Positions 5,506-48,350 of a DNA stretch of 64,000 nucleotides are shown piece after piece. The notes under the pieces are model-generated. The model was given only the letters and a program-made list of their open reading frames with translations, did not search any database and was not told the origin of the DNA. Origin of the DNA: an uncultured Candidatus Saccharibacteria bacterium (lineage in GTDB: Bacteria; Patescibacteriota; Minisyncoccia; Phycocordibacterales; UBA9973). The first letter of the stretch is position 1. Each line of letters begins with the position of its first letter. The stretch is from contig CAZKPK010000003.1 in the NCBI GenBank assembly GCA_964554645.1, forward strand, positions 4,256 through 68,255. Direction: 5' to 3'. The translations under genes and the position numbers were made by a program.

Positions 5506-6855
5506 ATGCGCAACAGGACTTATATCAAAGATTTAAAAGATAATGTCGGCAAAGAAATTATCATTGCTGGCTGGGTGGATGTCCGGCGCGATCAGGGGAA
5601 AATGGTTTTTTTTGATATGCGGGATATGACGGGCAAAGTGCAATGCGTGGCGTTGCCGACTAGAGCGGGAGTGATGGAAAAAGTGAAGGATATTAGGCTT
5701 GAATGGGTTTTAAAAGTTACCGGCATGGTCAACAAGCGTCCAATCAAAAATGTGAAGGCGGGATTTTTGAATGGCGATGTCGAACTTGAAGTGACAGACG
5801 TTGAAGTGTTCGCAAAGGCTGAACCACTTCCTTTTGATATGTCCCTTGACGGCTATAATTTAGAATTAACGACCGAGCTGGATAATCGCGCTCTGGTTTT
5901 GCGTCAACCGAAAGTGCAAGCGGTTTTCAAAGTGCAAGAGACAATCATAGATTCTTTTCGGGAATTTATGAAAAAAAATATGTTTTTCGAATTTCAGGCG
6001 CCGTCTATCACTCCGGCAGTTGCTGAAGGGGGTAGTGAAGTTTTTCAGCTTGATTATTTTGCTAAAAAAGCTTTCTTAACCCAGTCTCCTCAGTTGTATA
6101 AACAGATAGTTATGTCCGCTTTTGAAAGAGTTTTTTCCGTGAATAAAATTTTTCGCGCTGAACCAAGCGCGACCACCAGACATTTGACCGAAGTTGTATC
6201 ACTCGACGCGGAAATGGCTTTTATTGATGGCTGGGAAGATGTGCGGGATATGGCCGAAGCGACGGTTAAATTTATTTTGGAAAAAGTAGCCGAAAAAAAT
6301 TCCACCGAGTTGAAACTTTTAAAAGCGGAACTTCCGATAATGATAGAAAAAACCCCGACTTTTTCCCTGACGGAAGCGCAGGAAAAAATTTTTAAACATT
6401 TTAAGCGTGACGTGAGAGAAGAAAAAGATTTAAATCCGCAAGACGAAAGAGAGATATGTGAAATAGCAAAAAAAGAAACCGGTTCTGATTTCGTCTTTAT
6501 TTATGGCTATCCAACGCGCAAAAAACCTTTTTATGTTTATCCAAACCCAAAAAATCCAGAATTTAATGAGGGGATGGATTTATTGTGTCGCGGTTTGGAA
6601 TGGCTTTCTGGTGGACGCCGAATTAACAAATATGACCAGCTTTTGGAACACGTAAAATTATGGAAAATGGATCCCAAAAAAATTAAAATGTTTTTAGAAG
6701 CTTTCAAATACGGTGTCCCACCCGAAGGCGGTTTCGCTTTCGGCGCCGAGCGCATGACGATGCAACTTTTGGGACTTAAAAATATCCGGGAAGCTTGTAT
6801 GTTTCCCAGAGATATGGAGAGAATAGATGAAAGGCTCAATAGTGACGGTTACTAA
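5506..6855 (+). CDS. aspS: aspartyl-tRNA synthetase, archaeal/eukaryal short type (AsnRS not fully excluded)
   Basis: N-terminal OB fold; class II motifs FRAEPSATTRHLTEVVSLDAEMAF and GGFAFGAERMTMQLLGLKNIREACMFPRD; the LD.E signature favours AspRS. Confidence 0.75.
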   Translation: MRNRTYIKDLKDNVGKEIIIAGWVDVRRDQGKMVFFDMRDMTGKVQCVALPTRAGVMEKVKDIRLEWVLKVTGMVNKRPIKNVKAGFLNGDVELEVTDVEVFAKAEPLPFDMSLDGYNLELTTELDNRALVLRQPKVQAVFKVQETIIDSFREFMKKNMFFEFQAPSITPAVAEGGSEVFQLDYFAKKAFLTQSPQLYKQIVMSAFERVFSVNKIFRAEPSATTRHLTEVVSLDAEMAFIDGWEDVRDMAEATVKFILEKVAEKNSTELKLLKAELPIMIEKTPTFSLTEAQEKIFKHFKRDVREEKDLNPQDEREICEIAKKETGSDFVFIYGYPTRKKPFYVYPNPKNPEFNEGMDLLCRGLEWLSGGRRINKYDQLLEHVKLWKMDPKKIKMFLEAFKYGVPPEGGFAFGAERMTMQLLGLKNIREACMFPRDMERIDERLNSDGY

Positions 6856-23682: not shown

Positions 23683-24378
23683 ATGGAAAAAAATTTGCCA
23701 AACAAAGGTAAAAATCTGGTAATAAAAGTTAAGGAAAAAAGTTACGAGCGTATTCCGATAAAAACGCACGTCATTACAAAAAATGATGAAATAATTGACG
23801 TTGCGCTTAAATACGCCAGTCCGCGCCTCAAGGAGAATGATCTTGTTTTTATAAGCGAGAGGGTAGTGGCGATTACCCAAGACAGAGCATTTCCTATAAA
23901 AGATATCCATCCCTCCGGTTTGGCAAAATTTTTAGTTAAATTTGTGCGCAAGTCGCCTCACGGAATCGGGCTTGGCAGTCCGTGGACGATGGAACTAGCC
24001 ATCAGAGACGCTGGCGCAACGAGAATACTTTTCGCGGCTCTTTGTTCCGCCTTCACCAAACCATTTGGCTGGAGGGGCGTATTTTATAAAGTTGTCGGCA
24101 GAAATATTAATGCCATTGATGGTCCGTGTTCCTATACGATTGCGCCTTATAATGAATACGCCAAATTAGGACCGTCTAATCCAGATAAAGTTGCCAGAGA
24201 TATTAAATCTAAAATAAAAAATGATTGCGTGATAATTGATGCTAACGATCTTGGAGTGAATGTTTTGGGCCGTTCAAATGAGAAAACATCAAACGCCTTT
24301 TGCGCTGCGGTGTTTAAGGATAATCCCTTGGGACAAGCGTCAGAGCAGACGCCTATTTGCATTGTCCGAGCCTTATAG
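23683..24378 (+). CDS. CofE-like (F420-0:gamma-glutamyl ligase family) protein
   Basis: LVFISERVVAITQDRAFPI and VIIDANDLGVNVLG resemble conserved CofE blocks. Confidence 0.45.
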   Translation: MEKNLPNKGKNLVIKVKEKSYERIPIKTHVITKNDEIIDVALKYASPRLKENDLVFISERVVAITQDRAFPIKDIHPSGLAKFLVKFVRKSPHGIGLGSPWTMELAIRDAGATRILFAALCSAFTKPFGWRGVFYKVVGRNINAIDGPCSYTIAPYNEYAKLGPSNPDKVARDIKSKIKNDCVIIDANDLGVNVLGRSNEKTSNAFCAAVFKDNPLGQASEQTPICIVRAL

Positions 24379-24397
24379 TTTATGATAAAATGAAGCT

Positions 24398-24634
24398 ATG
24401 AAAAATATTAAAAAAATACCAGCCCAAGGCTGGTCCGCCTCAGGCGGAAAAAATAAAAAAAGCGGCTTTTTAAAATTAATCATTGTTATAATCATTGCTC
24501 TTCTTTTGATGCGTTATTTTCATATTACCATATCCGACATTTTAAATTATTTTCAGCTTTCTTGGTCTGAAGTTATCGATTGGCTCAAAAAGGCTCTAAA
24601 CTGGCTCAAAGATTTATTTAATAGTGTGAAGTAA
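24398..24634 (+). CDS. small membrane protein; its N-terminus is encoded by a family D palindrome
   Basis: One TM segment; N-terminal PAQGWSASGGKNKK derives from the repeat. Confidence 0.3.
   Translation: MKNIKKIPAQGWSASGGKNKKSGFLKLIIVIIIALLLMRYFHITISDILNYFQLSWSEVIDWLKKALNWLKDLFNSVK
24419..24452. repeat. family D GC-rich palindrome (degenerate copy)
   Basis: CCAGCCcaaGGCTGG + TCCGCCTCAGGCGGA + A-run. Confidence 0.6.
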
Positions 24635-24649
24635 GATTTAAAATTGGAA

Positions 24650-24724
24650 CACAGATTGTGCGAGCATTAAAATAATGTCGCACAATCTGTGTTATCTTTT
24701 AGGTCGTATATATACGACCTAAAA
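24650..24724. terminator. two adjacent strong hairpins (CACAGATTGTGCGA..TCGCACAATCTGTG and TTTTAGGTCGTATA/TATACGACCTAAAA) between convergent genes
   Basis: 15-bp and 14-bp stems flanked by T- and A-runs; likely bidirectional. Confidence 0.65.
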
Positions 24725-24746
24725 GATATATTGTGCGACGTGGATT

Positions 24747-25151
24747 CTATCTGCACGAGTTCGAAAGCTCATATCCGGCCTTTTGCGCCTCTTCCCCTGT
24801 CGCGAAATAAACTCTATTTTCTTGTTTGATAGTTTTGCCGGCCGAACAGCCGATGGAATAATATTTTATTCCTCTATTTGAGGCAAAGAAATTTTTTCCA
24901 GCAGAATTTGAAATTATTGGAGAAATTTTTGTATCTATCCCTAATGAATTTTGAGACAAAATGGCGTTTGCAGATTGGTTTTCTGTTTGGTCTGGATATT
25001 CTATTTTTATGCCTGAAGCAGTATTTTCTTTAGATAATCTGCCCAATTCAAACGAGCTCAAACCCACTAGGATAACAATAATGACAATTAAAATATCTTT
25101 TCCCTTCTCGGATTCTATCCAGTTTTTTATGATTGGCTTGATTTTTTCCAT
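24747..25151 (-). CDS. membrane-anchored protein with C-terminal Ada-like metal-binding domain
   Basis: N-terminal TM segment; C-terminal YYSIGCSAGKTIKQENRVYFATGEEAQKAGYELSNSC motif. Confidence 0.4.
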   Translation of the reverse strand: MEKIKPIIKNWIESEKGKDILIVIIVILVGLSSFELGRLSKENTASGIKIEYPDQTENQSANAILSQNSLGIDTKISPIISNSAGKNFFASNRGIKYYSIGCSAGKTIKQENRVYFATGEEAQKAGYELSNSCR

Positions 25152-25230
25152 AGAATGAATTATACTTGATTTTGTTATTGCATTATATAATAACTAGCTC
25201 CCAGAAGCTATAACTTAGAACCTAATTTAT

Positions 25231-25506
25231 ATGGCACATAGAAAAGCCGGCGGGACCGCCAAAAACTTAAGAGATTCGCAACCTAAATACCTCGGTATTA
25301 AGCTTTCCGACGGGCAAAAAGCCCAATCTGGTTCTATTATCGTTCGTCAACGCGGAACAGTTGTTATGGCTGGCAATAATGTCGGTTTAGGCAAAGATCA
25401 CACTCTTTTTGCTCTCAAAAACGGCACCGTCAAATTCGGCTCTAGACGCAAAATTTCTTTTAACGGCAAAACCGCAGTCAAAAAAGTGGTGAATGTTGTA
25501 ATCTAA
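25231..25506 (+). CDS. rpmA: 50S ribosomal protein L27
   Basis: [22 protein letters not shown]...IIVRQRGT...GKDHTLFA is a canonical L27. Confidence 0.9.
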
Positions 25507-25529
25507 TACATAGGAGTTTCCTATGTATT
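25505..25529. terminator. hairpin AATACATAGGA-loop-TCCTATGTATT
   Basis: 11-bp stem directly after the rpmA stop. Confidence 0.5.
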
Positions 25530-26339
25530 TCTAAATAATTGTGTCGCGGAAGGTAATTTTTCCGGCGCGCCAGTTTTTTTATGCAATCTTATAACTGTTG
25601 GAGTTACCTGAATATCAATTTCCGGGAATCTGTCTCTAATAGCAGTTGCCCAGTTTTCTATTTTTGTTGTTATTGTCGTGTTGCTTAAATCTGCAATATA
25701 ATTGTATTGAATAAACATAAGACCATTTACATTTAATATATTGTACCAATTTCTGAAGATACGGTCTAAAATGGCCGGATTTTTATTAATGTAATCAAGG
25801 GGGTTTACCATTCTAGATATTATTAAATCGATTTTATTTGCGCCAAGTTTCTGGATAACCTTGATAAGGACCTCAGTATTTATTGGGTCTGTTATATTTC
25901 CTGTTATTACAGAGTGATTCCTTCCTTCGTCTTCTTCTTTTTGTTTTTCTTCTCGTATATCCTTCAAACAGACACCCACTGTTTGTCTAAAAAAAAGAGG
26001 TGTAAAACCTCTAAAGAGTCGAGACCCAGGTCCACCAAACTCTGCCGCGCATAAATCTTGTTTTTTTCCTTTGGGAGTCAGTGTTTTTTCTATGTATTCT
26101 TTTAAAATTTTTTCTGTGTTATTTTTTGAACTATCCACTAAATTTGTCCAGTTGGGTAAGGATTGTAAAAAAGTATGTCCGAATCCTTCAAATCCTTCAA
26201 GACGTGAATCGTAGATAGGCCATTCTTCTTCTTTATGAGAGTATCCTCCAGTTTCTCCCACGGTTTCTTTTGTTAGATTCTGGTTTATCTTTAAGGCTTT
26301 TCTTATTTCTCCAATTTTAACTTTTATTCCTTCTTTCAT
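25521..26339 (-). CDS. hypothetical protein (possible SAM-methyltransferase-like GxGxG region)
   Basis: 272-aa ORF; DLCAAEFGGPGSRL is weakly reminiscent of MTase motif I. Confidence 0.35.
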   Translation of the reverse strand: MKEGIKVKIGEIRKALKINQNLTKETVGETGGYSHKEEEWPIYDSRLEGFEGFGHTFLQSLPNWTNLVDSSKNNTEKILKEYIEKTLTPKGKKQDLCAAEFGGPGSRLFRGFTPLFFRQTVGVCLKDIREEKQKEEDEGRNHSVITGNITDPINTEVLIKVIQKLGANKIDLIISRMVNPLDYINKNPAILDRIFRNWYNILNVNGLMFIQYNYIADLSNTTITTKIENWATAIRDRFPEIDIQVTPTVIRLHKKTGAPEKLPSATQLFRNT

Positions 26340-26418: not shown

Positions 26419-26892
26419 TTAAATTTTTTCCACCATTAGTTTAAACGAAGATTTTTTACCTTTTCCGCCAGAGGCGGACCCGCCTTGGGCGGGGATTTCT
26501 ACTGGAATTTCATGTTCCCCTATCGCTTTAATTGGTTTTTCTAAAACAATAAATTCCTCGCCAATATCCGCGTGATTTTGTTCTTTCATCGCTTCGATAA
26601 TTTCTTTCTTGTGAATGGCGGAAAAAAGATGTCCCAGCTCATTTGCTTTTCCTTTTAGGGTAATAGTTTTGCCTTTTATTTCTTCCAAATTTTTTAGGAG
26701 CAAACTTTCCCGCACTTCCCTTTCAATCGTGATCTCCTTTTTGCGCATTTCAAGCTCTGCCACAGCCTTTGGTGTGGCGACGACAGCCAATTTTTTAGGC
26801 AACAAAAAATTTACCGCATAGCCGTCGTTGACTTCCTTTAGGTCATACTTTTTCCCCACTCTTGGTATATCTTGTAAAAATATTATTCGCAT
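26419..26892 (-). CDS. rplI: 50S ribosomal protein L9; C-terminal region carries a family D repeat-encoded insert
   Basis: MRIIFLQDIPRVGKKYDLKEVNDGYAVNFLLP N-terminal domain and L9 C-terminal domain; AQGGSASGGK is encoded by the palindrome at 26461-26497. Confidence 0.85.
   Translation of the reverse strand: MRIIFLQDIPRVGKKYDLKEVNDGYAVNFLLPKKLAVVATPKAVAELEMRKKEITIEREVRESLLLKNLEEIKGKTITLKGKANELGHLFSAIHKKEIIEAMKEQNHADIGEEFIVLEKPIKAIGEHEIPVEIPAQGGSASGGKGKKSSFKLMVEKI
26461..26497. repeat. family D GC-rich palindrome TTTTCCGCCAGAGGCGGACCCGCCTTGGGCGGGGA
   Basis: CCGCC-N3-GGCGG twin hairpins; lies inside the rplI 3' coding region. Confidence 0.75.
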
Positions 26893-28480: not shown

Positions 28481-30283
28481 TTATCTAAAATATTCTGGAG
28501 TATAGATGGACATCCAGTCCAAAAGCTGTCGCATTACGGTAGATGCGTTGACGCTATTAACCGGGGGGCCGGCTTCCATCATGATCGTGAAGGCGTATCT
28601 GGGATTTTCTTCCGGAAAGAAGCCAATAACCCACGAATTAACTTTATTTTTATTTACGCCAAGTTGCGCTGTGCCAGTCTTGGCAGCGACTTTTACATAG
28701 GGCGCATTTAATGTTGCCGCAGTGCCGTAAGTTACCGCTTGCCTCATTCCATCGCGCACAATATCAAAATATTCTTTTTTAATATCTATAACAGAAACTC
28801 GATTTTCTTTTTCCTGGTCATCCAATCCAAAATGCGGAGTTACAAGTCTGCCGTTATTTGCAATTACTGAAACAGCGCGCGCCATTTCCATCGGAGTAAC
28901 CTGAAATCCGTATTGTCCAATGACTGTATGATAAGTGTCTCCAAGGCGCCAAACATCTCCCTTAAAGTTCGCTGTTTTCCACTCCGGACTTGGGATTATA
29001 CCTTTCGTCTCATTTGGCAAATCAATTCCGGTTTTATCTCCAAGTCCGAAAAGTTTCGCATATTTTTCAATATTTACGATTCCCATTCCCTTCTGATCTT
29101 CAAAACCTCCGCCGATAGAGTAAAAATAGATGTCTGAGGATACAGCCAGCGCTTGCGCCATATCTGTCCAGCCATTTGCCCTCCAGTCTGTAAAAATAGT
29201 TTTTTGGTTTTTTAAATAAGGATTTGGAATTGAAATGGAACCGGTTGAGAGGATCTTTTTATCCGGATCGATTACATTTTCTGCCAAAGCGCCTAAAGCT
29301 AAAAATGGTTTTACGATTGAACCCGGAGTGTAAAGCCCCGAAACAGTTTTATCCAGAAAAATTTTTCTTTTATCAGTTATATAGCTATTAATTTTTTTTA
29401 TATCCTTGCCTAGAGATAAAATTTCAGAATCATATTCTGGAAAACTGGTGGAAGTTATAATCTCTCCATTTTGCACGTCCATTATGATTCCCGCTCCGCC
29501 TGCAAATCTATTGCTTTCTGTTAAATTTTTAATGGAAGTGAATAATTTTGTTTGCACTCGCGAATCGATGCTCGTTATTAAATCGCTCCCCTGTTTTGGG
29601 GCATTTATGATATTTTCTGAATGGATAACTCCCTGCGCATTTGTTTCTATTATCTTTGATCCATTCCCCCCCTTTATTTTTTTGTCATATTTTTTTTCTA
29701 ATCCATCGATGCCTTCAAATTCAGTTTGCCAATAATTCCCGGCGCTGTCCTTTGTTGGATAACTCACATAACCCAATATATGCGAGAATCCGGGTGATGC
29801 ATAAGCGCGTGTATACAATATAGATGAATCCAACTTGGTAGTCGGAGCGCCACTTGGCGCTCCGACTACCAAGTTCGCTTCCCCTTCTGTTTTTTCATTC
29901 CAAGCCAATTTTTTTCCATTTCGGTCATAAATTATGCCTCTTTCCGCGAAGATATTTACTTTTTCCAGAATATTTTCTTCACTTCTTTTCCGATAGATGT
30001 CTCCTTTTTGTATTTGAAGATAAGAAAGGCGAATTCCGAATATTAGAATTATAAAAAGAAAAAAAGCGCCGAGAAAATTGATAGTTTTTTTGGGAATTGG
30101 CTTTTCTATCCGCCCTTCAAATTGCTGGCGGTTGAAATTTTGCAAATTTTTTGAATCCAGAAAAATTTCATCCGGCTCCACGAAAGTATTTCTAACTTTA
30201 TTCATCCTAAATTTTTTGAAAATCATCTTTATTTTAGGCGGAATCTTAGTTGTTTCTTTAATAACTCTAAGATTATAAAACAA
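28481..30283 (-). CDS. mrdA: penicillin-binding protein 2 (class B transpeptidase)
   Basis: N-terminal TM anchor and dimerisation domain; SIVKP (SxxK) and KTGTAQ motifs. Confidence 0.85.
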   Translation of the reverse strand: MFYNLRVIKETTKIPPKIKMIFKKFRMNKVRNTFVEPDEIFLDSKNLQNFNRQQFEGRIEKPIPKKTINFLGAFFLFIILIFGIRLSYLQIQKGDIYRKRSEENILEKVNIFAERGIIYDRNGKKLAWNEKTEGEANLVVGAPSGAPTTKLDSSILYTRAYASPGFSHILGYVSYPTKDSAGNYWQTEFEGIDGLEKKYDKKIKGGNGSKIIETNAQGVIHSENIINAPKQGSDLITSIDSRVQTKLFTSIKNLTESNRFAGGAGIIMDVQNGEIITSTSFPEYDSEILSLGKDIKKINSYITDKRKIFLDKTVSGLYTPGSIVKPFLALGALAENVIDPDKKILSTGSISIPNPYLKNQKTIFTDWRANGWTDMAQALAVSSDIYFYSIGGGFEDQKGMGIVNIEKYAKLFGLGDKTGIDLPNETKGIIPSPEWKTANFKGDVWRLGDTYHTVIGQYGFQVTPMEMARAVSVIANNGRLVTPHFGLDDQEKENRVSVIDIKKEYFDIVRDGMRQAVTYGTAATLNAPYVKVAAKTGTAQLGVNKNKVNSWVIGFFPEENPRYAFTIMMEAGPPVNSVNASTVMRQLLDWMSIYTPEYFR

Positions 30284-33313: not shown

Positions 33314-34282
33314 TTAGATTGCGTATTTTTTTAGATTATTTTTGATTCTTTTTTCAATATTTCCGGTTTCGGCTACAAAAGGGATTCCGGTAATTTGCTC
33401 ATATATTTGTATATATCGGCGGGATAATTCCGCAATCATTTCCGGCGGAGCCGGAGGCATCACTTTGTCTTTATATGGATCAGAATGTTCTTTGAACCAT
33501 AAACGTAGAAATTCTTTGTCAAAATTTTCCGGCTCTAAGCCTTTATTTATTCTATCTTGATACGAATTCGCTTGCCAATATCTGGAAGAATCGGGCGTAT
33601 GAATCTCGTCTATCAGCACCACCTCTCCATTTTTCGCGAGTCCAAATTCATATTTTGTATCCACTAAAATCAATCCTTTCTTTAAAGCGATTTCCTGTCC
33701 ACGGGCAAAAAGTTTCAAAGCTGCGCTGGAAACTTTTTGCCAAACTTCCGGCGTCATTATTTTTTCCTCTAAAATAATTTTACTAGTCAGTGGTCTGTCG
33801 TGGGCTTCAAATTTTGTGGTAGGTGTAAGGACTGGCTTGTTTAGTTTTTGATTTTTATGCATGCCGTCGGGCAGAGTAAAATCTCCAAAATTTCTTTCTC
33901 CTTTTTGATACAAGGTCCAAAGAGAAGTTCCGGTTACTCCAGTAATATAACCTCGCGCCACCATTTCTACGGGAATTACCGCGCATTTCTTACCCACTAC
34001 CACATTCGGATCGGGAAAATCTAGAGCATGATTTTTCACGATATCTTTGGTGTTTTCAAACCAAAACTTGCTGATTTGCGTCAGCACTTGCCCTTTGCCA
34101 GGTATTAATGCTAAATTGCGATCAAAAGCCGAGTATCGGTCTGTGGAAATCAGAATGATTTTATCACCTTGGCTATAAACATCTCTGACTTTGCCAGTAT
34201 ATTTTTCTCCTAGGTTCAAATTTTTTCCGCCCGAGGCGGATCCGCCTTTGGCGGAGAAATTTGTTTTTTCAAGTATATTCAT
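33314..34282 (-). CDS. purC: SAICAR synthetase; the called N-terminus likely over-extends into a family D repeat
   Basis: KVRDVYSQGDKIILISTDRYSAFD... SAICAR synthetase core. The true start is probably the TTG near 34206 (MNLGEKYTGKVRDVY); the upstream AKGGSASGGK is repeat-encoded. Confidence 0.85.
   Translation of the reverse strand: MNILEKTNFSAKGGSASGGKNLNLGEKYTGKVRDVYSQGDKIILISTDRYSAFDRNLALIPGKGQVLTQISKFWFENTKDIVKNHALDFPDPNVVVGKKCAVIPVEMVARGYITGVTGTSLWTLYQKGERNFGDFTLPDGMHKNQKLNKPVLTPTTKFEAHDRPLTSKIILEEKIMTPEVWQKVSSAALKLFARGQEIALKKGLILVDTKYEFGLAKNGEVVLIDEIHTPDSSRYWQANSYQDRINKGLEPENFDKEFLRLWFKEHSDPYKDKVMPPAPPEMIAELSRRYIQIYEQITGIPFVAETGNIEKRIKNNLKKYAI
34221..34258. repeat. family D GC-rich palindrome TTTTCCGCCCGAGGCGGATCCGCCTTTGGCGGAGAAA
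   Basis: Lies between purM and the purC core. Confidence 0.75.
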
Positions 34283-45602: not shown

Positions 45603-46166
45603 TTAAACACTCGGTGTTGAACATAATTTTTCTAAAATTTCCACATACATTTTATTCTCTTTCTTTTTTAGTCTAGCATACAAAGATTCGATAGTATCAT
45701 CGGCCTCAACTTTTTCAAAAGTTCTTCCCAAGACTGGCCCGAAATCAAAATTCAAAGTCAGAAAATGAACAGAAGAACCCGCGTAAGTAGATTTTTGGTC
45801 CAAGAAATTCTGGATAGCTTTATTGCCGTACATTCCTTTATTCCATAAAGCTTTAGTGCCATCTGGATTTTCCACAGTTCCATCAATCGTGTTTGGAATG
45901 AGTCCCGGATGTAAATTCAAGATTTTATTTTGATATTTTTTAATCATTTCATCAGGGATAATTTTCTTCCAACCGCTGAGGCACATGTAATCTGGCGATA
46001 TTTTGTCTATTATCGGTTTAGGATTCTCTTTATCAGAAACCACCGCAGAAATTTCAGCATTAATTTTACCTTTATCAATTGCATCTCTAATTGCTCTGAG
46101 GTTGGTTTGAGTACCCCCTTCATGAACTAAAAGCACTAATTTTAATTTAATCTTTTGGAACATCAT
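45603..46166 (-). CDS. purN: phosphoribosylglycinamide formyltransferase
   Basis: NLHPGLIP motif and formyl-transferase fold length. Confidence 0.75.
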   Translation of the reverse strand: MMFQKIKLKLVLLVHEGGTQTNLRAIRDAIDKGKINAEISAVVSDKENPKPIIDKISPDYMCLSGWKKIIPDEMIKKYQNKILNLHPGLIPNTIDGTVENPDGTKALWNKGMYGNKAIQNFLDQKSTYAGSSVHFLTLNFDFGPVLGRTFEKVEADDTIESLYARLKKKENKMYVEILEKLCSTPSV

Positions 46167-47547
46167 AATTTACTTCGTTTTTGCGTTCTTTTAAATCAAT
46201 TGGGTAAATGCCTGTGAAGCATGAAGTGGATAAATGCTCTTCTGGCAAGCCGATCGATTTTATTAAGCCGCCAAGCGAAAGATAATGCAACGAGGTGGCC
46301 CCGAGAAATTTGCGGATTTTTTCTACAGTTTTGCGAGAGGCAATCAATTCGTTTTGGTCTGGAGTATCCATGCCGTAAAAGTCCGGAAAACGTATCGGTG
46401 GAGAAGAGATTAGAAGATGCACTTCTTTGGCGCCTGATTTAAAAAATGTTTTTACCAGTCTTTTGCAGGTATTTCCTCTGACGATAGAGTCATCTATCAC
46501 CGCTATTTTTTTGCCCTTTAAAACTTGCGGAAGAGGAATAAGTTTCAGCGCCACACTATGCCGACGGGATTTCTTATCGGGTTCGATAAAAGTTCTGTGG
46601 ACATAGCGATTTTTCACTAAAGCCATTTCGATCGGAATACCGGAAACTTCGCTATAGCCTAAGGCAACGGGAGTTGCCGTATCAGGCACCGGCACTATGG
46701 CATCGACTTTTAGTTTAAATTCTTCAGCCAGAACTTTTCCGAAATTTTTTCTGACTTCATATATCAATTTGCCGTTCAGCACGCTGTCCGGCCGGGCAAA
46801 ATAAACATATTCAAATATGTCATGTTTTGGATTCGATTTTTCCAATTGCGCGCTTTTAATTCCCTTTTCATTTATCACAACCATTTCTCCCGGTTTTATT
46901 TCTCTGGAAAGTTTTGCGCCGATAGTTTTAAGCGCGCAGGTTTCCGATACAACAATAAAGCCCTTGCCGATTTTCCCTAGCGCGAGCGGGCGCATTCCAT
47001 AAGTGTCCCGCACGGCGATCAAGGTATCCTTATTCATCATTACTAACGAAAATGCCCCAGTCATCAGAGGAAAAACTTTTTCCACAGATTTTTCCAGCGA
47101 GTGGCCTTCTTTTATAAAAAAATTTATGCTATCGGCTATTAGTTCTGAATCCGATCTGTTTTCTTGCAATATCTTCTGCTCTATCAGAAATTTTTGGAGC
47201 AGTTTAACGCTGGGTAAGTTGCCATTGTGCGCGAGCGCAAAAGCATTATCCATCATATCCACCACTGGTTGGGCGTGATCGAGAGCGCTCCCGCCGGAAG
47301 TGGAATATCGGTTGTGTCCAATGCCTATATGCCCTTTTAAATTTTCTATATCTTTTTCTTTATAAACTTGCGCCACGAGTCCCGCACCTTTGTGAGTGTG
47401 AAGTTTTTTACCATCGCTCGTGGTAATGCCGGATGCCTCTTGTCCCCTATGCTGTAAAGCAAACAAGGCAAAAAAAGCCAGTTTAGAGACAGGCAAACCC
47501 TTTCCGTATATGCCTACGATTCCGCATTTTTCTTTCAGTTCGCTCAT
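46147..47547 (-). CDS. purF: amidophosphoribosyltransferase
   Basis: MSELKEKCGIVGIYG Ntn-GATase start plus PRTase domain. Confidence 0.9.
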   Translation of the reverse strand: MSELKEKCGIVGIYGKGLPVSKLAFFALFALQHRGQEASGITTSDGKKLHTHKGAGLVAQVYKEKDIENLKGHIGIGHNRYSTSGGSALDHAQPVVDMMDNAFALAHNGNLPSVKLLQKFLIEQKILQENRSDSELIADSINFFIKEGHSLEKSVEKVFPLMTGAFSLVMMNKDTLIAVRDTYGMRPLALGKIGKGFIVVSETCALKTIGAKLSREIKPGEMVVINEKGIKSAQLEKSNPKHDIFEYVYFARPDSVLNGKLIYEVRKNFGKVLAEEFKLKVDAIVPVPDTATPVALGYSEVSGIPIEMALVKNRYVHRTFIEPDKKSRRHSVALKLIPLPQVLKGKKIAVIDDSIVRGNTCKRLVKTFFKSGAKEVHLLISSPPIRFPDFYGMDTPDQNELIASRKTVEKIRKFLGATSLHYLSLGGLIKSIGLPEEHLSTSCFTGIYPIDLKERKNEVNYDVPKD

Positions 47548-47549
47548 AA

Positions 47550-48350
47550 TTATTTTCCGCCAAAGGCGGATCCGCCTTGGGCGGAAAAGTATTCAACTGC
47601 GTTTTTAAAAATTTGAAGCCCTTTTCCCTCTTTTGAAACTTTTTTATTCCCACCAGAGGAACGGGCAAGCATTTGCCACATCGGACTTTGGTGAGAAAAC
47701 ATTGCCCGTTCCGGATGAGGCATCATTCCCAAAACTCTTCCATTATAGGCTAAAACTCCCGCAATGCAAAAGTCTGAGCCATTTGGATTATATTCTAAAT
47801 TTTGAAATTTACAAATTTCTCCTTTTATATAAATGAAAGCTGTTTGGTTATTTTTCTTCAAATTTTTATATCCTCCTGCGCCTATCACATAACGTCCTTC
47901 GCCATGCGCTATCGGGAGCGATATTTTTTTGATTCCCTTCAGCCAGGGGCTATTTCCAATCGACTCTAAGTCGACCCATCTATCAATATATTTGCCATTT
48001 TTATTGTAAGTCAAAGCCCCCGGCAGAATTCCTAAATTAGTCATAATTTGAAATCCATTGCAGATGCCTATGGCCAGAGTGTCGCGCGATAAAAATTCCG
48101 CTAGTTCTTTTGCCAAATGATTTTTTAATTTATTAGCGTAGGCTTTCCCGCTGCCAGTATCGTCGCCGTAAGAAAATCCTCCCGGGAAAGCCAAAATCTG
48201 GTATTCAGACAGCATTTTTGGTTTGGCAATGAGATCATTGATATGCACGATGTCCGCGTTTCCCCCAACCGACTCAAAAGCGAATTTTGTTTCTTCTTCG
48301 CAATTGAGCCCGTAGCCGGACATTATTATAACTTTTGGTTTATTTTTCAT
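47550..48350 (-). CDS. purQ: FGAM synthase glutaminase subunit PurQ; C-terminal tail encoded by a family D repeat
   Basis: GICNGFQ, HGEGR and MPHPER motifs; ends ...YFSAQGGSAFGGK*, which is repeat-derived. Confidence 0.8.
   Translation of the reverse strand: MKNKPKVIIMSGYGLNCEEETKFAFESVGGNADIVHINDLIAKPKMLSEYQILAFPGGFSYGDDTGSGKAYANKLKNHLAKELAEFLSRDTLAIGICNGFQIMTNLGILPGALTYNKNGKYIDRWVDLESIGNSPWLKGIKKISLPIAHGEGRYVIGAGGYKNLKKNNQTAFIYIKGEICKFQNLEYNPNGSDFCIAGVLAYNGRVLGMMPHPERAMFSHQSPMWQMLARSSGGNKKVSKEGKGLQIFKNAVEYFSAQGGSAFGGK
47553..47588. repeat. family D GC-rich palindrome TTTTCCGCCAAAGGCGGATCCGCCTTGGGCGGAAAAG
   Basis: Clearest copy; inside the purQ 3' end, 3 nt before the purF start. Confidence 0.8.

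What the first reader, a model, noticed from the sequence alone, without database searches (positions are those of the whole stretch)
47553..47588. GC-rich twin-hairpin palindrome (family D) embedded in-frame in the termini of four ORFs, giving an AQGGSASGGK-like peptide
A 35-bp element TTTTCCGCC-NRR-GGCGGAYCCGCCTTKGGCGGRRA occurs four times, at 24419, 26461, 34221 and 47553. Three copies are very similar and the fourth is degenerate. Each has two CCGCC-N3-GGCGG hairpins with a T-run on one side and an A-run on the other, like a bidirectional terminator. Yet each sits inside or abutting coding sequence: inside the rplI 3' region, at the very C-terminus of purQ 3 nt before the purF start, at the called N-terminus of purC, and at the N-terminus of a small membrane ORF. 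Because the element is nearly self-complementary, either orientation translates to (P/S)AQGG(S/W)A(S/F)GGK. Candidate explanations are a mobile miniature palindromic element that tolerates insertion at gene ends, or a regulatory RNA hairpin placed at operon junctions such as purQ|purF.
Basis: seen in the sequence. Interest (0 to 1): 0.7.

Follow-up and report, generated by a model that had tools for sequence, protein, structure and literature searches.

The report
Tiny in-frame mobile twin-hairpin DNA insert
The four GC-rich palindromes are copies of a 30-base twin-hairpin element that has been inserted, without breaking the reading frame, into genes of this Nomurabacteria genome and into unrelated genes of several other bacterial phyla; this makes it an unusually small and widespread piece of apparently selfish DNA rather than a regulatory signal.

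Summary
In detail: there are four copies where chance predicts none. The element proper is 30 bp, made of two abutting 15-nt hairpins: (T/C)CCGCC-NRA-GGCGG(A/G) followed by its inverse. In frame it reads S/P-A-x-G-G-S-A-x-G-G.

Close, syntenic relatives lack the insert at all four window sites (rplI, purC, a small membrane ORF, purQ). The empty sites are TTT^AAA-like and show no target-site duplication.

The same 30-mer, with the same TT(T/C)^AAA flanks and the same reading frame, occurs in more than 120 other species genomes. By record title these are 53 Patescibacteria, 18 Omnitrophota, 13 PVC and 5 FCB, plus others. It sits in unrelated proteins such as UvrA, AspRS, GrpE, L15, GH57 and T9SS tails.

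An Omnitrophota GH57 filled/empty pair fixes the boundaries exactly. The closing pair of each hairpin covaries (T-A or C-G, p = 3e-25), and a compensated CAGCC/GGCTG subfamily is itself abundant. This supports a twin-hairpin DNA structure rather than a conserved peptide.

The polarity (T-run 5', A-run 3') is the reverse of a terminator.

Best reading: a REP-like, non-autonomous insertion element filtered by selection to its one tolerable frame. How it moves is unknown; a single-strand HUH-type mechanism is inferred, not shown. I found no description of it in the literature searched.

The parts
47556..47585 (.). Focal copy. 30-bp twin-hairpin element TCCGCCAAAGGCGGA|TCCGCCTTGGGCGGA. On the minus strand it is read in frame as SAQGGSAFGG, between purQ codons ..EYF and K-stop.
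   Evidence: The empty junction in relative L133 reads ..TAC TTT^AAA AAA TGA, with the purF ATG overlapping the stop. Relative L134 carries the insert.
47550..48350 (-). purQ (FGAM synthase glutaminase subunit). Its C-terminus is extended by the element.
   Evidence: Pfam GATase_5, 3.3e-72. Of 119 orthologs, 107 end ..YF-K(K)* and 12 carry the insert or a remnant of it.
46147..47547 (-). purF, which starts 2 nt after the purQ stop codon.
26464..26493 (.). Copy inside rplI: TCCGCCAGAGGCGGA|CCCGCCTTGGGCGGG. Read on the minus strand as PAQGGSASGG.
   Evidence: A clean 30-bp gap in L121 and L123 at ATC^AAG / ATA^AAG. The insert is a low-confidence loop (residues 134-146) between two beta strands in the AF2 model.
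26419..26892 (-). rplI (ribosomal protein L9), 157 aa here against 147 aa in most orthologs.
34226..34255 (.). Copy in purC after codon 9: TCCGCCCGAGGCGGA|TCCGCCTTTGGCGGA. Read on the minus strand as SAKGGSASGG.
   Evidence: The N-terminus MNILEKTNF is conserved upstream of the element, and the empty site TTT^AAA is seen in L121.
33314..34282 (-). purC (SAICAR synthetase), 322 aa here against 310 aa in relatives.
24419..24448 (.). Heterodimer copy CCAGCCCAAGGCTGG|TCCGCCTCAGGCGGA. The first hairpin has a compensated stem. Read on the plus strand as PAQGWSASGG.
   Evidence: The empty site TTA^AAA is seen in L121 and L123. This subfamily is abundant in metagenomes.
24398..24634 (+). 78-aa predicted membrane ORF that hosts the heterodimer copy after codon 7. 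Relatives are 66-68 aa.

Best explanation
**What it is.** A 30-bp non-autonomous insertion element made of two abutting 15-nt hairpin units in inverted orientation. Each unit has a 6-bp G+C stem and a 3-nt loop: (T/C)CCGCC-NRA-GGCGG(A/G).

**Shown here.**
- It enters DNA at TT(T/C)^AAA-like sites.
- It adds exactly 30 bp and makes no target-site duplication.
- It is present or absent among close orthologs.
- It recurs in unrelated genes of Patescibacteria, Omnitrophota, FCB and PVC bacteria.
- Its hairpins are kept by compensatory change.

**Why it survives inside genes.** Thirty bp is ten codons, and all frames are free of fixed stop codons. One frame reads as a flexible Ser/Ala/Gly segment (SAxGGSAxGG). 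Copies in that frame, at termini, loops and linkers, therefore survive selection, which is how the element persists in a gene-dense CPR genome.

**Inferred, not shown.**
- It is mobilised in trans as folded single-stranded DNA by an HUH/Y1-type (RAYT or IS200-like) enzyme, or another enzyme that leaves no duplication.
- It has passed horizontally among co-occurring groundwater lineages.
- It has no host function at purQ|purF; that copy merely extends purQ by ten residues.
For: **Real repeat.** Four copies against 0 expected.

**Insertion polymorphism at all four window sites.** DNA alignments with syntenic relatives show gaps of 30 bp (rplI, purQ), 33 bp (small ORF) and 36 bp (purC), each holding the 30-bp element at ATC^AAG, TTT^AAA, TTA^AAA and TTT^AAA.

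**Scattered alleles.** Twelve of 119 purQ orthologs carry the insert or a remnant. They require 11 state changes on an NJ tree, and their nearest neighbours are mostly insert-free.

**Exact boundaries and no duplication.** Omnitrophota GH57: ACC TTC^AAA AAC in L137 against TTC[TCCGCC..GGCGGA]AAA AAC in L113.

**Cross-phylum spread.** A scan of species genomes found more than 120 loci. Host proteins include UvrA, AspRS, GrpE, L15, an E2 acyltransferase, a MurA-like enzyme, a solute-binding protein and T2SS-K. Removing the 10 residues in silico raises the T9SS sorting-domain score from 19.8 to 27.6 bits and from 25.9 to 34.7 bits.

**Features the search pattern did not constrain are conserved.** The flanks are TTT/AAA and the loops are NRA/TYN.

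**Hairpin covariation.** Closing pairs are T-A (212), C-G (28) and mismatched (13 to 14), Fisher p = 3e-25. In 32 informative copies the twin-hairpin model gives 56 of 64 Watson-Crick pairs, against 7 of 64 for a single long hairpin. Compensated stems occur as CAGCC/GGCTG, CCTCC/GGAGG and CCCGC/GCGGG.

**Frame filter.** There are 72 copies in the SAxGG frame against 9 and 12 in the other two. TTTAAA sites in the window's genes are equally frequent in the two possible frames, 36 against 40.

**Position in proteins.** Seventeen of 45 copies lie near ORF ends. In L9 the insert is a loop with pLDDT below 50.

**Strand bias in the asymmetric subfamily.** In-frame copies number 65 in one orientation and 10 in the other, or 51 against 14 independent loci. 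This fits single-strand insertion.

**Plausible route of transfer.** Omnitrophota and Bacteroidota are reported as the more frequent non-CPR gene-exchange partners of groundwater Patescibacteria (PMC12455944).
Against: - No mobilising enzyme was identified. A tblastn search with an IS200 TnpA sequence recalled from memory found nothing in the window. It found one unrelated IS200 copy among about 134 loci, with different end hairpins.
- No ongoing transposition was observed. Precise loss of a palindrome could mimic some of the gains.
- The stems are identical across all hits by construction of the search pattern.
Some MAG taxon labels (the 'uncultured Gammaproteobacteria' and 'Saccharibacteria' third-party assemblies) are unverified.
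- Intergenic heterodimer copies show no orientation bias (5 against 5; one-sided cases 4 against 9). This weakens a replication-strand explanation.
- The few hits in Chloroflexota with about 70% G+C lack TTT/AAA flanks and may be chance matches in Gly/Ala-rich coding sequence.
Confidence: 0.75

Rival explanations
1. The identity is the same (an inserted selfish palindrome), but it spreads without a dedicated enzyme. One route is replication template-switching, or gene conversion, primed by the TTT(T)/(A)AAA microhomology at stalled GC hairpins. Another is uptake-biased or ordinary homologous recombination that carries alleles with the insert between strains.
For: The flanks are short homopolymer runs that are identical at every copy. 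There is no target-site duplication. No transposase was found nearby. purQ alleles with the insert are scattered among insert-free ones, as recombination would produce. Other palindrome families occupy almost the same A-rich spot in L9, which suggests a generic property of the site.
Against: Three or four bases of microhomology is very little for accurate, repeated copy-and-paste into hundreds of unrelated sites. The strong coding-strand orientation bias of the heterodimer (65 against 10) is not predicted. Recombination alone cannot place the element in new genes.
Confidence: 0.15
2. A cis-acting RNA or DNA signal used by the host. Candidates are a processing or stability hairpin, an attenuator or terminator at operon junctions such as purQ|purF, or a binding or uptake site for a conserved protein.
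For: The structures are stable (-20 to -28 kcal/mol, z-scores -2.7 to -5.6). The hairpins are maintained by covariation. The inner AGGCGGATCCGCCT palindrome and the NRA/TYN loops are conserved. Some copies lie between genes (L077, L101, L123).
Against: The A-run, not a U-run, follows the hairpins on both strands, and the focal copy is not called as a terminator. Most orthologous junctions and genes lack the element. It sits at arbitrary internal positions of unrelated proteins. No Rfam family matches it. Uptake sequences arise by substitution, not by 30-bp insertion.
Confidence: 0.06
3. A conserved functional peptide motif (SAxGGSAxGGK), with the palindromic DNA as a by-product of codon choice.
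For: The same peptide recurs in one frame in most genic copies. It superficially resembles a GxxxxGK P-loop.
Against: It is absent from most orthologs. It occurs in unrelated proteins and in intergenic DNA. The Gly-to-Trp change in the CAGCC/GGCTG subfamily is radical for a peptide but compensatory for the stem. The loop codons vary freely. The closing-pair covariation is silent with respect to function.
Confidence: 0.02
4. An assembly or sequencing artefact, or adaptor contamination that contains a BamHI site.
For: GGATCC at the centre resembles cloning sequences. Literature hits for GGCGGATCCGCC are all primers.
Against: The element is found in assemblies from many laboratories, assemblers and environments. 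It is always frame-preserving, has diverged copies and subfamilies, and orthologous copies have accumulated substitutions and a loop expansion.
Confidence: 0.01

Closest known systems
REP elements, REP dimers and REPINs, mobilised by RAYT (HUH/Y1) transposases
   Same: Both are short G+C-rich hairpin units that occur mainly as inverted dimers and leave no target duplication. REP dimers are sometimes found inside ORFs, for example in Opitutus terrae and in uvrA genes, where they encode 20-30 residues (Di Nocera et al. 2013, PMC3733652). Hairpin-preserving stem variants and heterodimers occur in both.
   Different: This element has no GTAG or CGTC tag. Its two units abut with zero spacer, giving only 30 bp in total. 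The same sequence occurs across phyla, whereas REP families are species- or genus-specific. It has a defined TT(T/C)^AAA target. All four window copies, and about 55% of copies across the fetched loci, are in coding sequence. No RAYT link has been shown.
Rickettsia palindromic elements (RPE)
   Same: Both are palindromic repeats inserted in frame into functional protein genes, tolerated in loops and at termini, and present or absent among orthologs. Sources are Ogata et al. 2002 and Claverie & Ogata 2003, as cited in PMC3733652; the details are from my own knowledge.
   Different: RPEs are roughly 100-150 bp (30-50 residues) and are confined to Rickettsia and its relatives. They have a different sequence and no defined hexamer target.
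Mitochondrial GC clusters of yeasts and double-hairpin elements of Allomyces and chytrid mtDNA
   Same: Both are small mobile G+C-rich hairpins in A+T-rich genomes, and some mitochondrial copies lie in frame in coding sequence (yeast var1). The mobile family in yeast mtDNA is listed as PMC4478555; the details are from my own knowledge.
   Different: Those elements are organellar, have different sequences and are lineage-restricted.
MITEs (derivatives of DDE transposons)
   Same: Both are small and non-autonomous, and both occur between and within genes.
   Different: MITEs are 70-300 bp, with terminal inverted repeats and a target-site duplication. This element is 30 bp, with exact boundaries and no duplication.
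Bidirectional intrinsic terminators
   Same: Both have a G+C-rich hairpin flanked by A and T runs.
   Different: The polarity is reversed: T-run 5' and A-run 3' on both strands, so no U-tract follows the stem. The element also lies inside essential ORFs.
DNA uptake sequences (USS/DUS)
   Same: Both are short over-represented motifs that are tolerated within genes in preferred reading frames (my own knowledge).
   Different: Uptake sequences accumulate by point substitution without any change in length. Here there is a discrete 30-bp insertion, at a much lower density (4 copies in 64 kb).

Membership tests
REP / REPIN (RAYT-associated) | Short (20-40 bp) imperfect G+C-rich palindrome, often arranged as inverted dimers | tested here: met
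   Two 15-nt hairpins in inverted orientation. Covariation supports two separate stems.
REP / REPIN (RAYT-associated) | Conserved GTAG or CGTC tetranucleotide tag at one end of the unit | tested here: not met
   The flank logo is T/T/T(C)/T next to the stem, with no GTAG or CGTC. The definition is taken from PMC3733652.
REP / REPIN (RAYT-associated) | Predominantly extragenic location | tested here: not met
   All four window copies lie in ORFs. Of 130 copies in other genomes, 72 are in frame within open stretches of at least 120 aa.
REP / REPIN (RAYT-associated) | A RAYT gene in the genome, flanked by REPs | tested here: inconclusive
   A tblastn search with a recalled IS200 TnpA found nothing in the window and one unrelated IS200 copy in L091. 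Only 64 kb of the genome is available, and RAYTs are divergent.
IS200/IS605-type single-strand (HUH) transposition, non-autonomous derivative | No target-site duplication | tested here: met
   The GH57 filled/empty pair gives unambiguous 30-bp boundaries. The other four pairs are consistent with this.
IS200/IS605-type single-strand (HUH) transposition, non-autonomous derivative | Strand-specific insertion 3' of a short target, giving an orientation bias | tested here: inconclusive
   The heterodimer subfamily shows 65 against 10 relative to the coding strand, with TTT on the 5' side. Intergenic copies are unbiased (n is small), and the homodimer target looks two-sided.
MITE | Terminal inverted repeats plus a target-site duplication; length 70-300 bp | tested here: not met
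   The element is 30 bp and makes no duplication.
Rickettsia palindromic elements | Palindromic repeat inserted in frame into protein genes | tested here: met
Rickettsia palindromic elements | RPE consensus sequences of about 100-150 bp, found in the Rickettsia lineage | tested here: not met
   The element is 30 bp, and its hosts are Patescibacteria, Omnitrophota, FCB and PVC bacteria.
Rho-independent terminator | G+C-rich stem followed directly by a U-tract on the transcribed strand | tested here: not met
   An A-run follows the stems on both strands, and the focal copy is not called by the scan.
Any Rfam RNA family | A score at or above the family's gathering threshold | tested here: not met
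   Nothing at the element reaches a gathering threshold. In the permissive search, only generic hairpin noise appears, at or below 24 bits against thresholds of 30 to 125.
DNA uptake sequence | The motif arises in place by substitution, without any change in length relative to orthologs | tested here: not met
   A discrete 30-bp insertion relative to orthologs.

The most novel reading that the evidence does not exclude
A previously undescribed class of ultra-small (30 bp, ten-codon) mobile DNA. On this reading it targets TT(T/C)^AAA, inserts without duplication as a folded twin hairpin, and is effectively built to be translated as a harmless Gly/Ser/Ala linker. It would be driven by an as-yet unidentified single-strand (HUH-like) or other enzyme shared horizontally among ultra-small and associated groundwater bacteria (Patescibacteria, Omnitrophota, FCB, PVC). 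That would make it one of the smallest, if not the smallest, transposable unit I am aware of, and a natural 'linker-scanning' mutagen of proteomes.
Probability: 0.3. Interest if true: 0.85.

Novelty: new variant of a known kind. Interest (0 to 1): 0.66.

Why it matters
- **Annotation.** These inserts lengthen real proteins (L9, PurQ, PurC). They can mislead start-codon and terminator calls in CPR and Omnitrophota MAGs, and they lower domain scores. T9SS tails fall below the Pfam threshold until the insert is removed.
- **Protein evolution.** The copies form a natural catalogue of positions where conserved proteins accept a ten-residue flexible loop.
- **Mobile DNA.** A 30-bp element with a defined hexamer target, no duplication, hairpin covariation and the same sequence in several phyla extends the REP/RPE idea to a much smaller scale and a much wider host range. 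It points to an unidentified mobilising activity in genomes usually regarded as poor in mobile elements.
- **Ecology.** Its distribution (Patescibacteria, Omnitrophota, Bacteroidota/Ignavibacteriota, PVC) matches the gene-exchange partners reported for groundwater Patescibacteria. It could serve as a marker of those exchange networks.

Tried and rejected
- **Terminator or regulatory hairpin.** Rejected on polarity, on its absence from orthologous junctions and on the terminator scan.
- **Known RNA family.** Nothing in Rfam at gathering thresholds or in the permissive E-value search.
- **One long 18-bp hairpin** (the RNAfold minimum-energy structure for several copies). Rejected in favour of twin hairpins by covariation: 56 of 64 pairs against 7 of 64.
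- **Phage vector.** Only 4 hits in 2.9 million viral contigs.
- **An autonomous parent with the hairpins as its ends.** Loci with two copies 1-2 kb apart (L008, L077, L101) enclose ordinary genes or composite repeats, not a transposase.
- **IS200 link.** One IS200-like TnpA in L091 has unrelated end hairpins and was judged coincidental.
- **Frame bias from target availability.** TTTAAA is equally common in both possible frames.
- **Orientation bias from redundant sampling.** The bias persists after clustering into 66 independent loci.
- **Literature.** Searches for the sequence, the peptide, and combinations of REP or palindrome terms with CPR and Omnitrophota names found only primers, synthetic linkers and general REP/RPE papers.
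Full report
**1. Observation**

The motif CCGCC-N3-GGCGG occurs seven times in the 64-kb window, against 0.01 expected from shuffles, and only at the four reported places.

The window is about 38% G+C. Its L9 protein is identical to an NCBI entry from Candidatus Nomurabacteria.

- One copy is inside rplI.
- One copy forms the last codons of purQ. The stop is TAA, followed by two bases and then the purF ATG.
- One copy is near the start of purC.
- One copy is near the start of a 78-aa membrane ORF.

**2. The copies are insertions**

Two syntenic relatives were fetched, L121 and L123. Both carry purE-purM-purC...rplI-rpmA-small ORF in the same order, but with purC at 310 aa, L9 at 147 aa and the small ORF at 66-68 aa. 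DNA alignments show the following:
- **rplI:** ..ATC^AAG.. in the relatives, against ATC[CCCGCCCAAGGCGGGTCCGCCTCTGGCGGA]AAA in the window, a 30-bp gap.
- **purC:** ..AAT TTT^AAA AAC.. against TTC[TCCGCC..GGCGGA]AAA. The N-terminus MNILEKTNF is conserved upstream, so the element lies inside purC and not before its start. An additional 6-bp difference downstream makes the alignment gap 36 bp.
- **Small ORF:** TTA^AAA against ATA[CCAGCCCAAGGCTGGTCCGCCTCAGGCGGA]AAA. The alignment gap is 33 bp.
- **Focal copy at purQ|purF:** relative L133 reads ..AAT TAC TTT^AAA AAA TGA, with the purF ATG overlapping the stop (ATGA). The window and relative L134 carry the 30-mer after TTT.

At the protein level, most L9 orthologs are 147 aa and lack the segment. 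Among purQ orthologs, 107 of 119 end ..YF-K(K)*. Twelve carry SA[RKQ]GGSA[FLY]GG or a degraded form, including a one-unit form, 'SARGG'.

The purQ alleles that carry the insert are scattered. They need 11 state changes on an NJ tree, and almost every one has an insert-free allele as its nearest neighbour. The tree is shallow, so this count is an upper estimate of independent events.

**3. Anatomy**

The inserted unit is 30 bp, made of two 15-nt hairpins: (T/C)CCGCC-NRA-GGCGG(A/G) followed by (T/C)CCGCC-TYN-GGCGG(A/G). The second is the inverse of the first, so both strands read alike.

RNAfold prefers either one long hairpin or two short ones, at -20 to -28 kcal/mol. Covariation settles the question:
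- Across 127 copies from other genomes, the closing pair of each unit is T-A (212 units) or C-G (28 units), with only 13-14 mismatches (Fisher p = 3e-25).
- In the 32 informative copies, the twin-hairpin pairing gives 56 of 64 Watson-Crick pairs. The long-hairpin pairing gives 7 of 64.
- These positions, the flanks and the loops were not fixed by the search pattern. The five inner stem pairs were fixed, so they carry no information.

Compensated stem variants exist: CAGCC/GGCTG (window copy 24419-24448, L123, L135), CCTCC/GGAGG (L073) and CCCGC/GCGGG (L031). One GH57 allele has a loop grown from 3 to 9 nt with its stems intact.

**4. Distribution**

Counting by record title gives:

| Group (by record title) | Loci |
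|---|---|
| Patescibacteria (CPR) | 53 |
| Omnitrophota | 18 |
| PVC (Kiritimatiellae, Planctomycetota, Verrucomicrobiota, Lentisphaerae) | 13 |
| Bacteroidota / Ignavibacteriota | 5 |
| Third-party MAGs labelled Gammaproteobacteria (labels unverified) | 11 |
| Chloroflexota | 4 |
| Other phyla | 5 |
| Unclassified | 11 |

Locus G+C ranges from 27% to 70%. The few hits near 70% G+C lack the A/T flanks and may be chance matches.

Viral contigs gave only four hits.

Two checks support the non-CPR cases:
- **Omnitrophota GH57.** Most orthologs read ..NKAF^KGK.., and six carry SAKGGSA[SY]GG. At the DNA level, L137 reads ACC TTC^AAA AAC and L113 reads TTC[TCCGCCAAAGGCGGATCCGCCTCCGGCGGA]AAA AAC. This fixes the boundaries without ambiguity and shows that there is no target duplication.
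- **T9SS tails.** Two proteins with Bacteroidota-type T9SS sorting tails (L054 and L040) regain Pfam Por_Secre_tail scores above threshold when the ten residues are removed in silico: 19.8 to 27.6 bits and 25.9 to 34.7 bits.

Other host proteins include UvrA, AspRS, a MurA-like enzyme, an E2 acyltransferase, GrpE, L15, a solute-binding protein and T2SS-K.

**5. Target and frame**

The flanks are conserved. T occurs at 54%, 81%, 59% and 85% over the four bases 5' of CCGCC, mirrored by A on the 3' side, and the signal falls to background beyond that.

In 45 copies with an unambiguous coding strand, the preceding codon is TTT or TTC in 21 and the following codon is AAA or AAG in 27. Together with the five empty sites, this points to a TT(T/C)^AAA-like target.

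Of the 130 copies, 72 lie in stop-free stretches of at least 120 aa in the frame xCC GCC nnn GGC GGx TCC GCC nnn GGC GGA. Only 9 and 12 lie in the other two frames, and some of those are read-through artefacts.

In the window's own genes, TTTAAA is equally common as TTT|AAA (36) and as xxT TTA AAx (40). It is absent in the TAA frame. The frame excess therefore reflects selection on what is translated (SAxGGSAxGG against PPxADPPxAE or RRxRIRxxRK), not target availability.

Seventeen of the 45 copies lie within about 35 codons of an ORF end. In an AlphaFold model of the window's L9 (mean pLDDT 63), the insert is a low-confidence loop, residues 134-146, between two strands of the C-terminal domain.

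**6. Not a terminator or a regulatory hairpin**

On both strands the T-run precedes the hairpins and the A-run follows them, so no U-tract follows the stem. The scan does not call the focal copy as a terminator. The calls at other copies arise from A/T-rich coding flanks.

No Rfam family matches, either at gathering thresholds or in the permissive search. Most relatives have no element at purQ|purF.

**7. An asymmetric subfamily and a strand bias (partly unexplained)**

Because it is asymmetric, its orientation can be scored.
- In-frame genic copies read F-SAxGGPAxGW-(D/K/E/Q) in 65 cases and the opposite orientation in 10.
- The frame counts are 65/3/2 for the favoured orientation and 10/9/9 for the other.
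- After clustering the flanks, the counts are 51 against 14 independent loci. The largest cluster is ten copies in the G/F-rich region of a protein whose context resembles DnaJ; that identification is mine and was not tested.
- Lys-AAA codons should outnumber Phe-TTT codons in A+T-rich genomes (my own knowledge), so target supply predicts the opposite bias.
- Intergenic copies show no bias, but they are few.

This could mean strand-specific insertion 3' of TTT into the sense strand, as in HUH/Y1 single-strand transposition. It could also mean selection that I cannot rationalise. The window's own heterodimer copy and the L9 'QGW' alleles are in the minority orientation.

**8. Mechanism**

Shown here:
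- A discrete 30-bp insertion with no duplication and an A/T hexamer target.
- Hairpin-preserving evolution.
- Recurrence at the same site in different lineages.
- Presence in several phyla.
- A frame and position filter.

Inferred:
- Mobilisation in trans as single-stranded DNA by an HUH/Y1 enzyme or another enzyme that leaves no duplication. DDE-type transposition is unlikely, because from general knowledge it leaves duplications.
- Horizontal spread among co-occurring lineages. This is plausible because Omnitrophota and Bacteroidota are reported as the more frequent non-CPR exchange partners of groundwater Patescibacteria (PMC12455944).

I could not identify the enzyme. A recalled IS200 TnpA sequence finds nothing in the window. 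It finds one IS200 copy, in L091, with unrelated end hairpins. Pairs of copies 1-2 kb apart enclose ordinary genes.

An enzyme-free route remains a live rival for the mode of spread. It would work by template switching on the TTT/AAA microhomology, followed by recombination.

**9. Comparison with known elements**

The closest concepts are:
- REP dimers and REPINs, including intragenic REP dimers in Opitutus terrae and in uvrA genes (PMC3733652).
- Rickettsia palindromic elements.
- Mitochondrial GC clusters and double-hairpin elements.

It differs from REPs in several ways. It has no GTAG or CGTC tag and no spacer between its units. The same sequence occurs across phyla. It is mostly genic, and no RAYT link is shown. 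It differs from RPEs in size and host range, and from MITEs in having no duplication and being only 30 bp.

Seven literature searches found no description of this element. The library lacks most subscription journals, so prior description cannot be excluded.

**10. Verdict**

The finding is real. The 'mobile palindrome' reading is well supported, and the 'regulatory hairpin or terminator' reading is not. I class the element as a new variant of a known kind: an in-frame, REP-like palindromic insert. Its unusually small size, defined target and cross-phylum spread make it worth follow-up.

Noticed in passing
window 29832-29875, inside ORF 28481..30283 (minus strand): A perfect 44-bp palindrome with 20-bp arms, AACTTGGTAGTCGGAGCGCCACTTGGCGCTCCGACTACCAAGTT, lies inside a 600-aa ORF. 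It starts on a codon boundary and would read NLVVGAPSGAPTTKF. It looks like a second, unrelated family of palindrome embedded in coding sequence.
   Followed up: partly
window 47649-47669 (purQ residues 228-234): The window's purQ has a second extra segment, LARSSGG, that most orthologs lack. purQ orthologs also carry other recurrent mini-inserts at this spot: P(Q/R)RKASFLRG(R/K)Q, EGLPRLSTRRG, and variants of (A/K)PS(S/Y/F)AKA...
   Followed up: partly
L129:1900-1945, L130:1900-1945, L131 and L132 (L9 loop, aligned): The same A-rich loop of L9 (I^K-G-K-K) carries different G+C-rich palindromic inserts in other Nomurabacteria. Examples are CCCGCAATGCTACGCATAGCGTTGCAGGCGGG in L129 and a single CCACC-gct-GGTGG hairpin in L132. 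This makes the loop a hot spot for several insert families.
   Followed up: partly
window 59743-59853 (minus strand) and 62605-62675 (minus strand): A LOOT RNA (Rfam RF03000, 74.7 bits against a gathering score of 46.4) and a tRNA.
   Followed up: no
window, about 24000-26000: Cumulative GC skew peaks near 24 kb, and gene orientation switches from mostly plus-strand to mostly minus-strand near 24.7 kb. The arrangement is convergent, so this may be the replication terminus.
   Followed up: no
L138-L257 (metagenome loci), for example L166:889-1085 and L153:13-180: The heterodimer subfamily shows a strong coding-strand orientation bias (65 against 10). It occurs up to three times within the G/F-rich region of proteins whose context resembles DnaJ; that identification was not tested.
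   Followed up: partly
L008:4569-4752 and 6390-6572: In a Kiritimatiellae MAG the element is embedded in a composite intergenic repeat of about 185 bp that is duplicated 1.82 kb apart. The repeat also contains other hairpin modules, whose translations include HPERSEE and LRSGQAL.
   Followed up: partly
L081:2466, L082:7586, L083:7365, L049:4744, L077:6107 and 7397, L101:713 and 2425: In some genomes the element is flanked by short tandem repeats (GAAGATT, AAAGTC, AAATCTT) or by a longer inverted repeat (CAGGTTACAGG..). This suggests that it sits within larger repeat structures there.
   Followed up: no
L091:3500-3901: An IS200-like TnpA gene lies about 700 bp from a copy in a Falkowbacteria MAG. 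Its end hairpins (CCACTGGTTCGACCAGTGG and CCACCAGCTTGCTGGTGG) are unrelated to the element.
   Followed up: yes
L136:205-1806 (Omnitrophota GH57 allele): The second hairpin loop has expanded from 3 to 9 nt (TCCGCC-ACGAATTGT-GGCGGA) with its stems intact. The peptide reads SAKGGSATNCGG.
   Followed up: no
L013:3832-6525 (UvrA): Besides the element, this UvrA carries another probable palindrome-derived segment (..KGSFAPLRMTESG..). This echoes published reports of REP inserts in uvrA genes.
   Followed up: no
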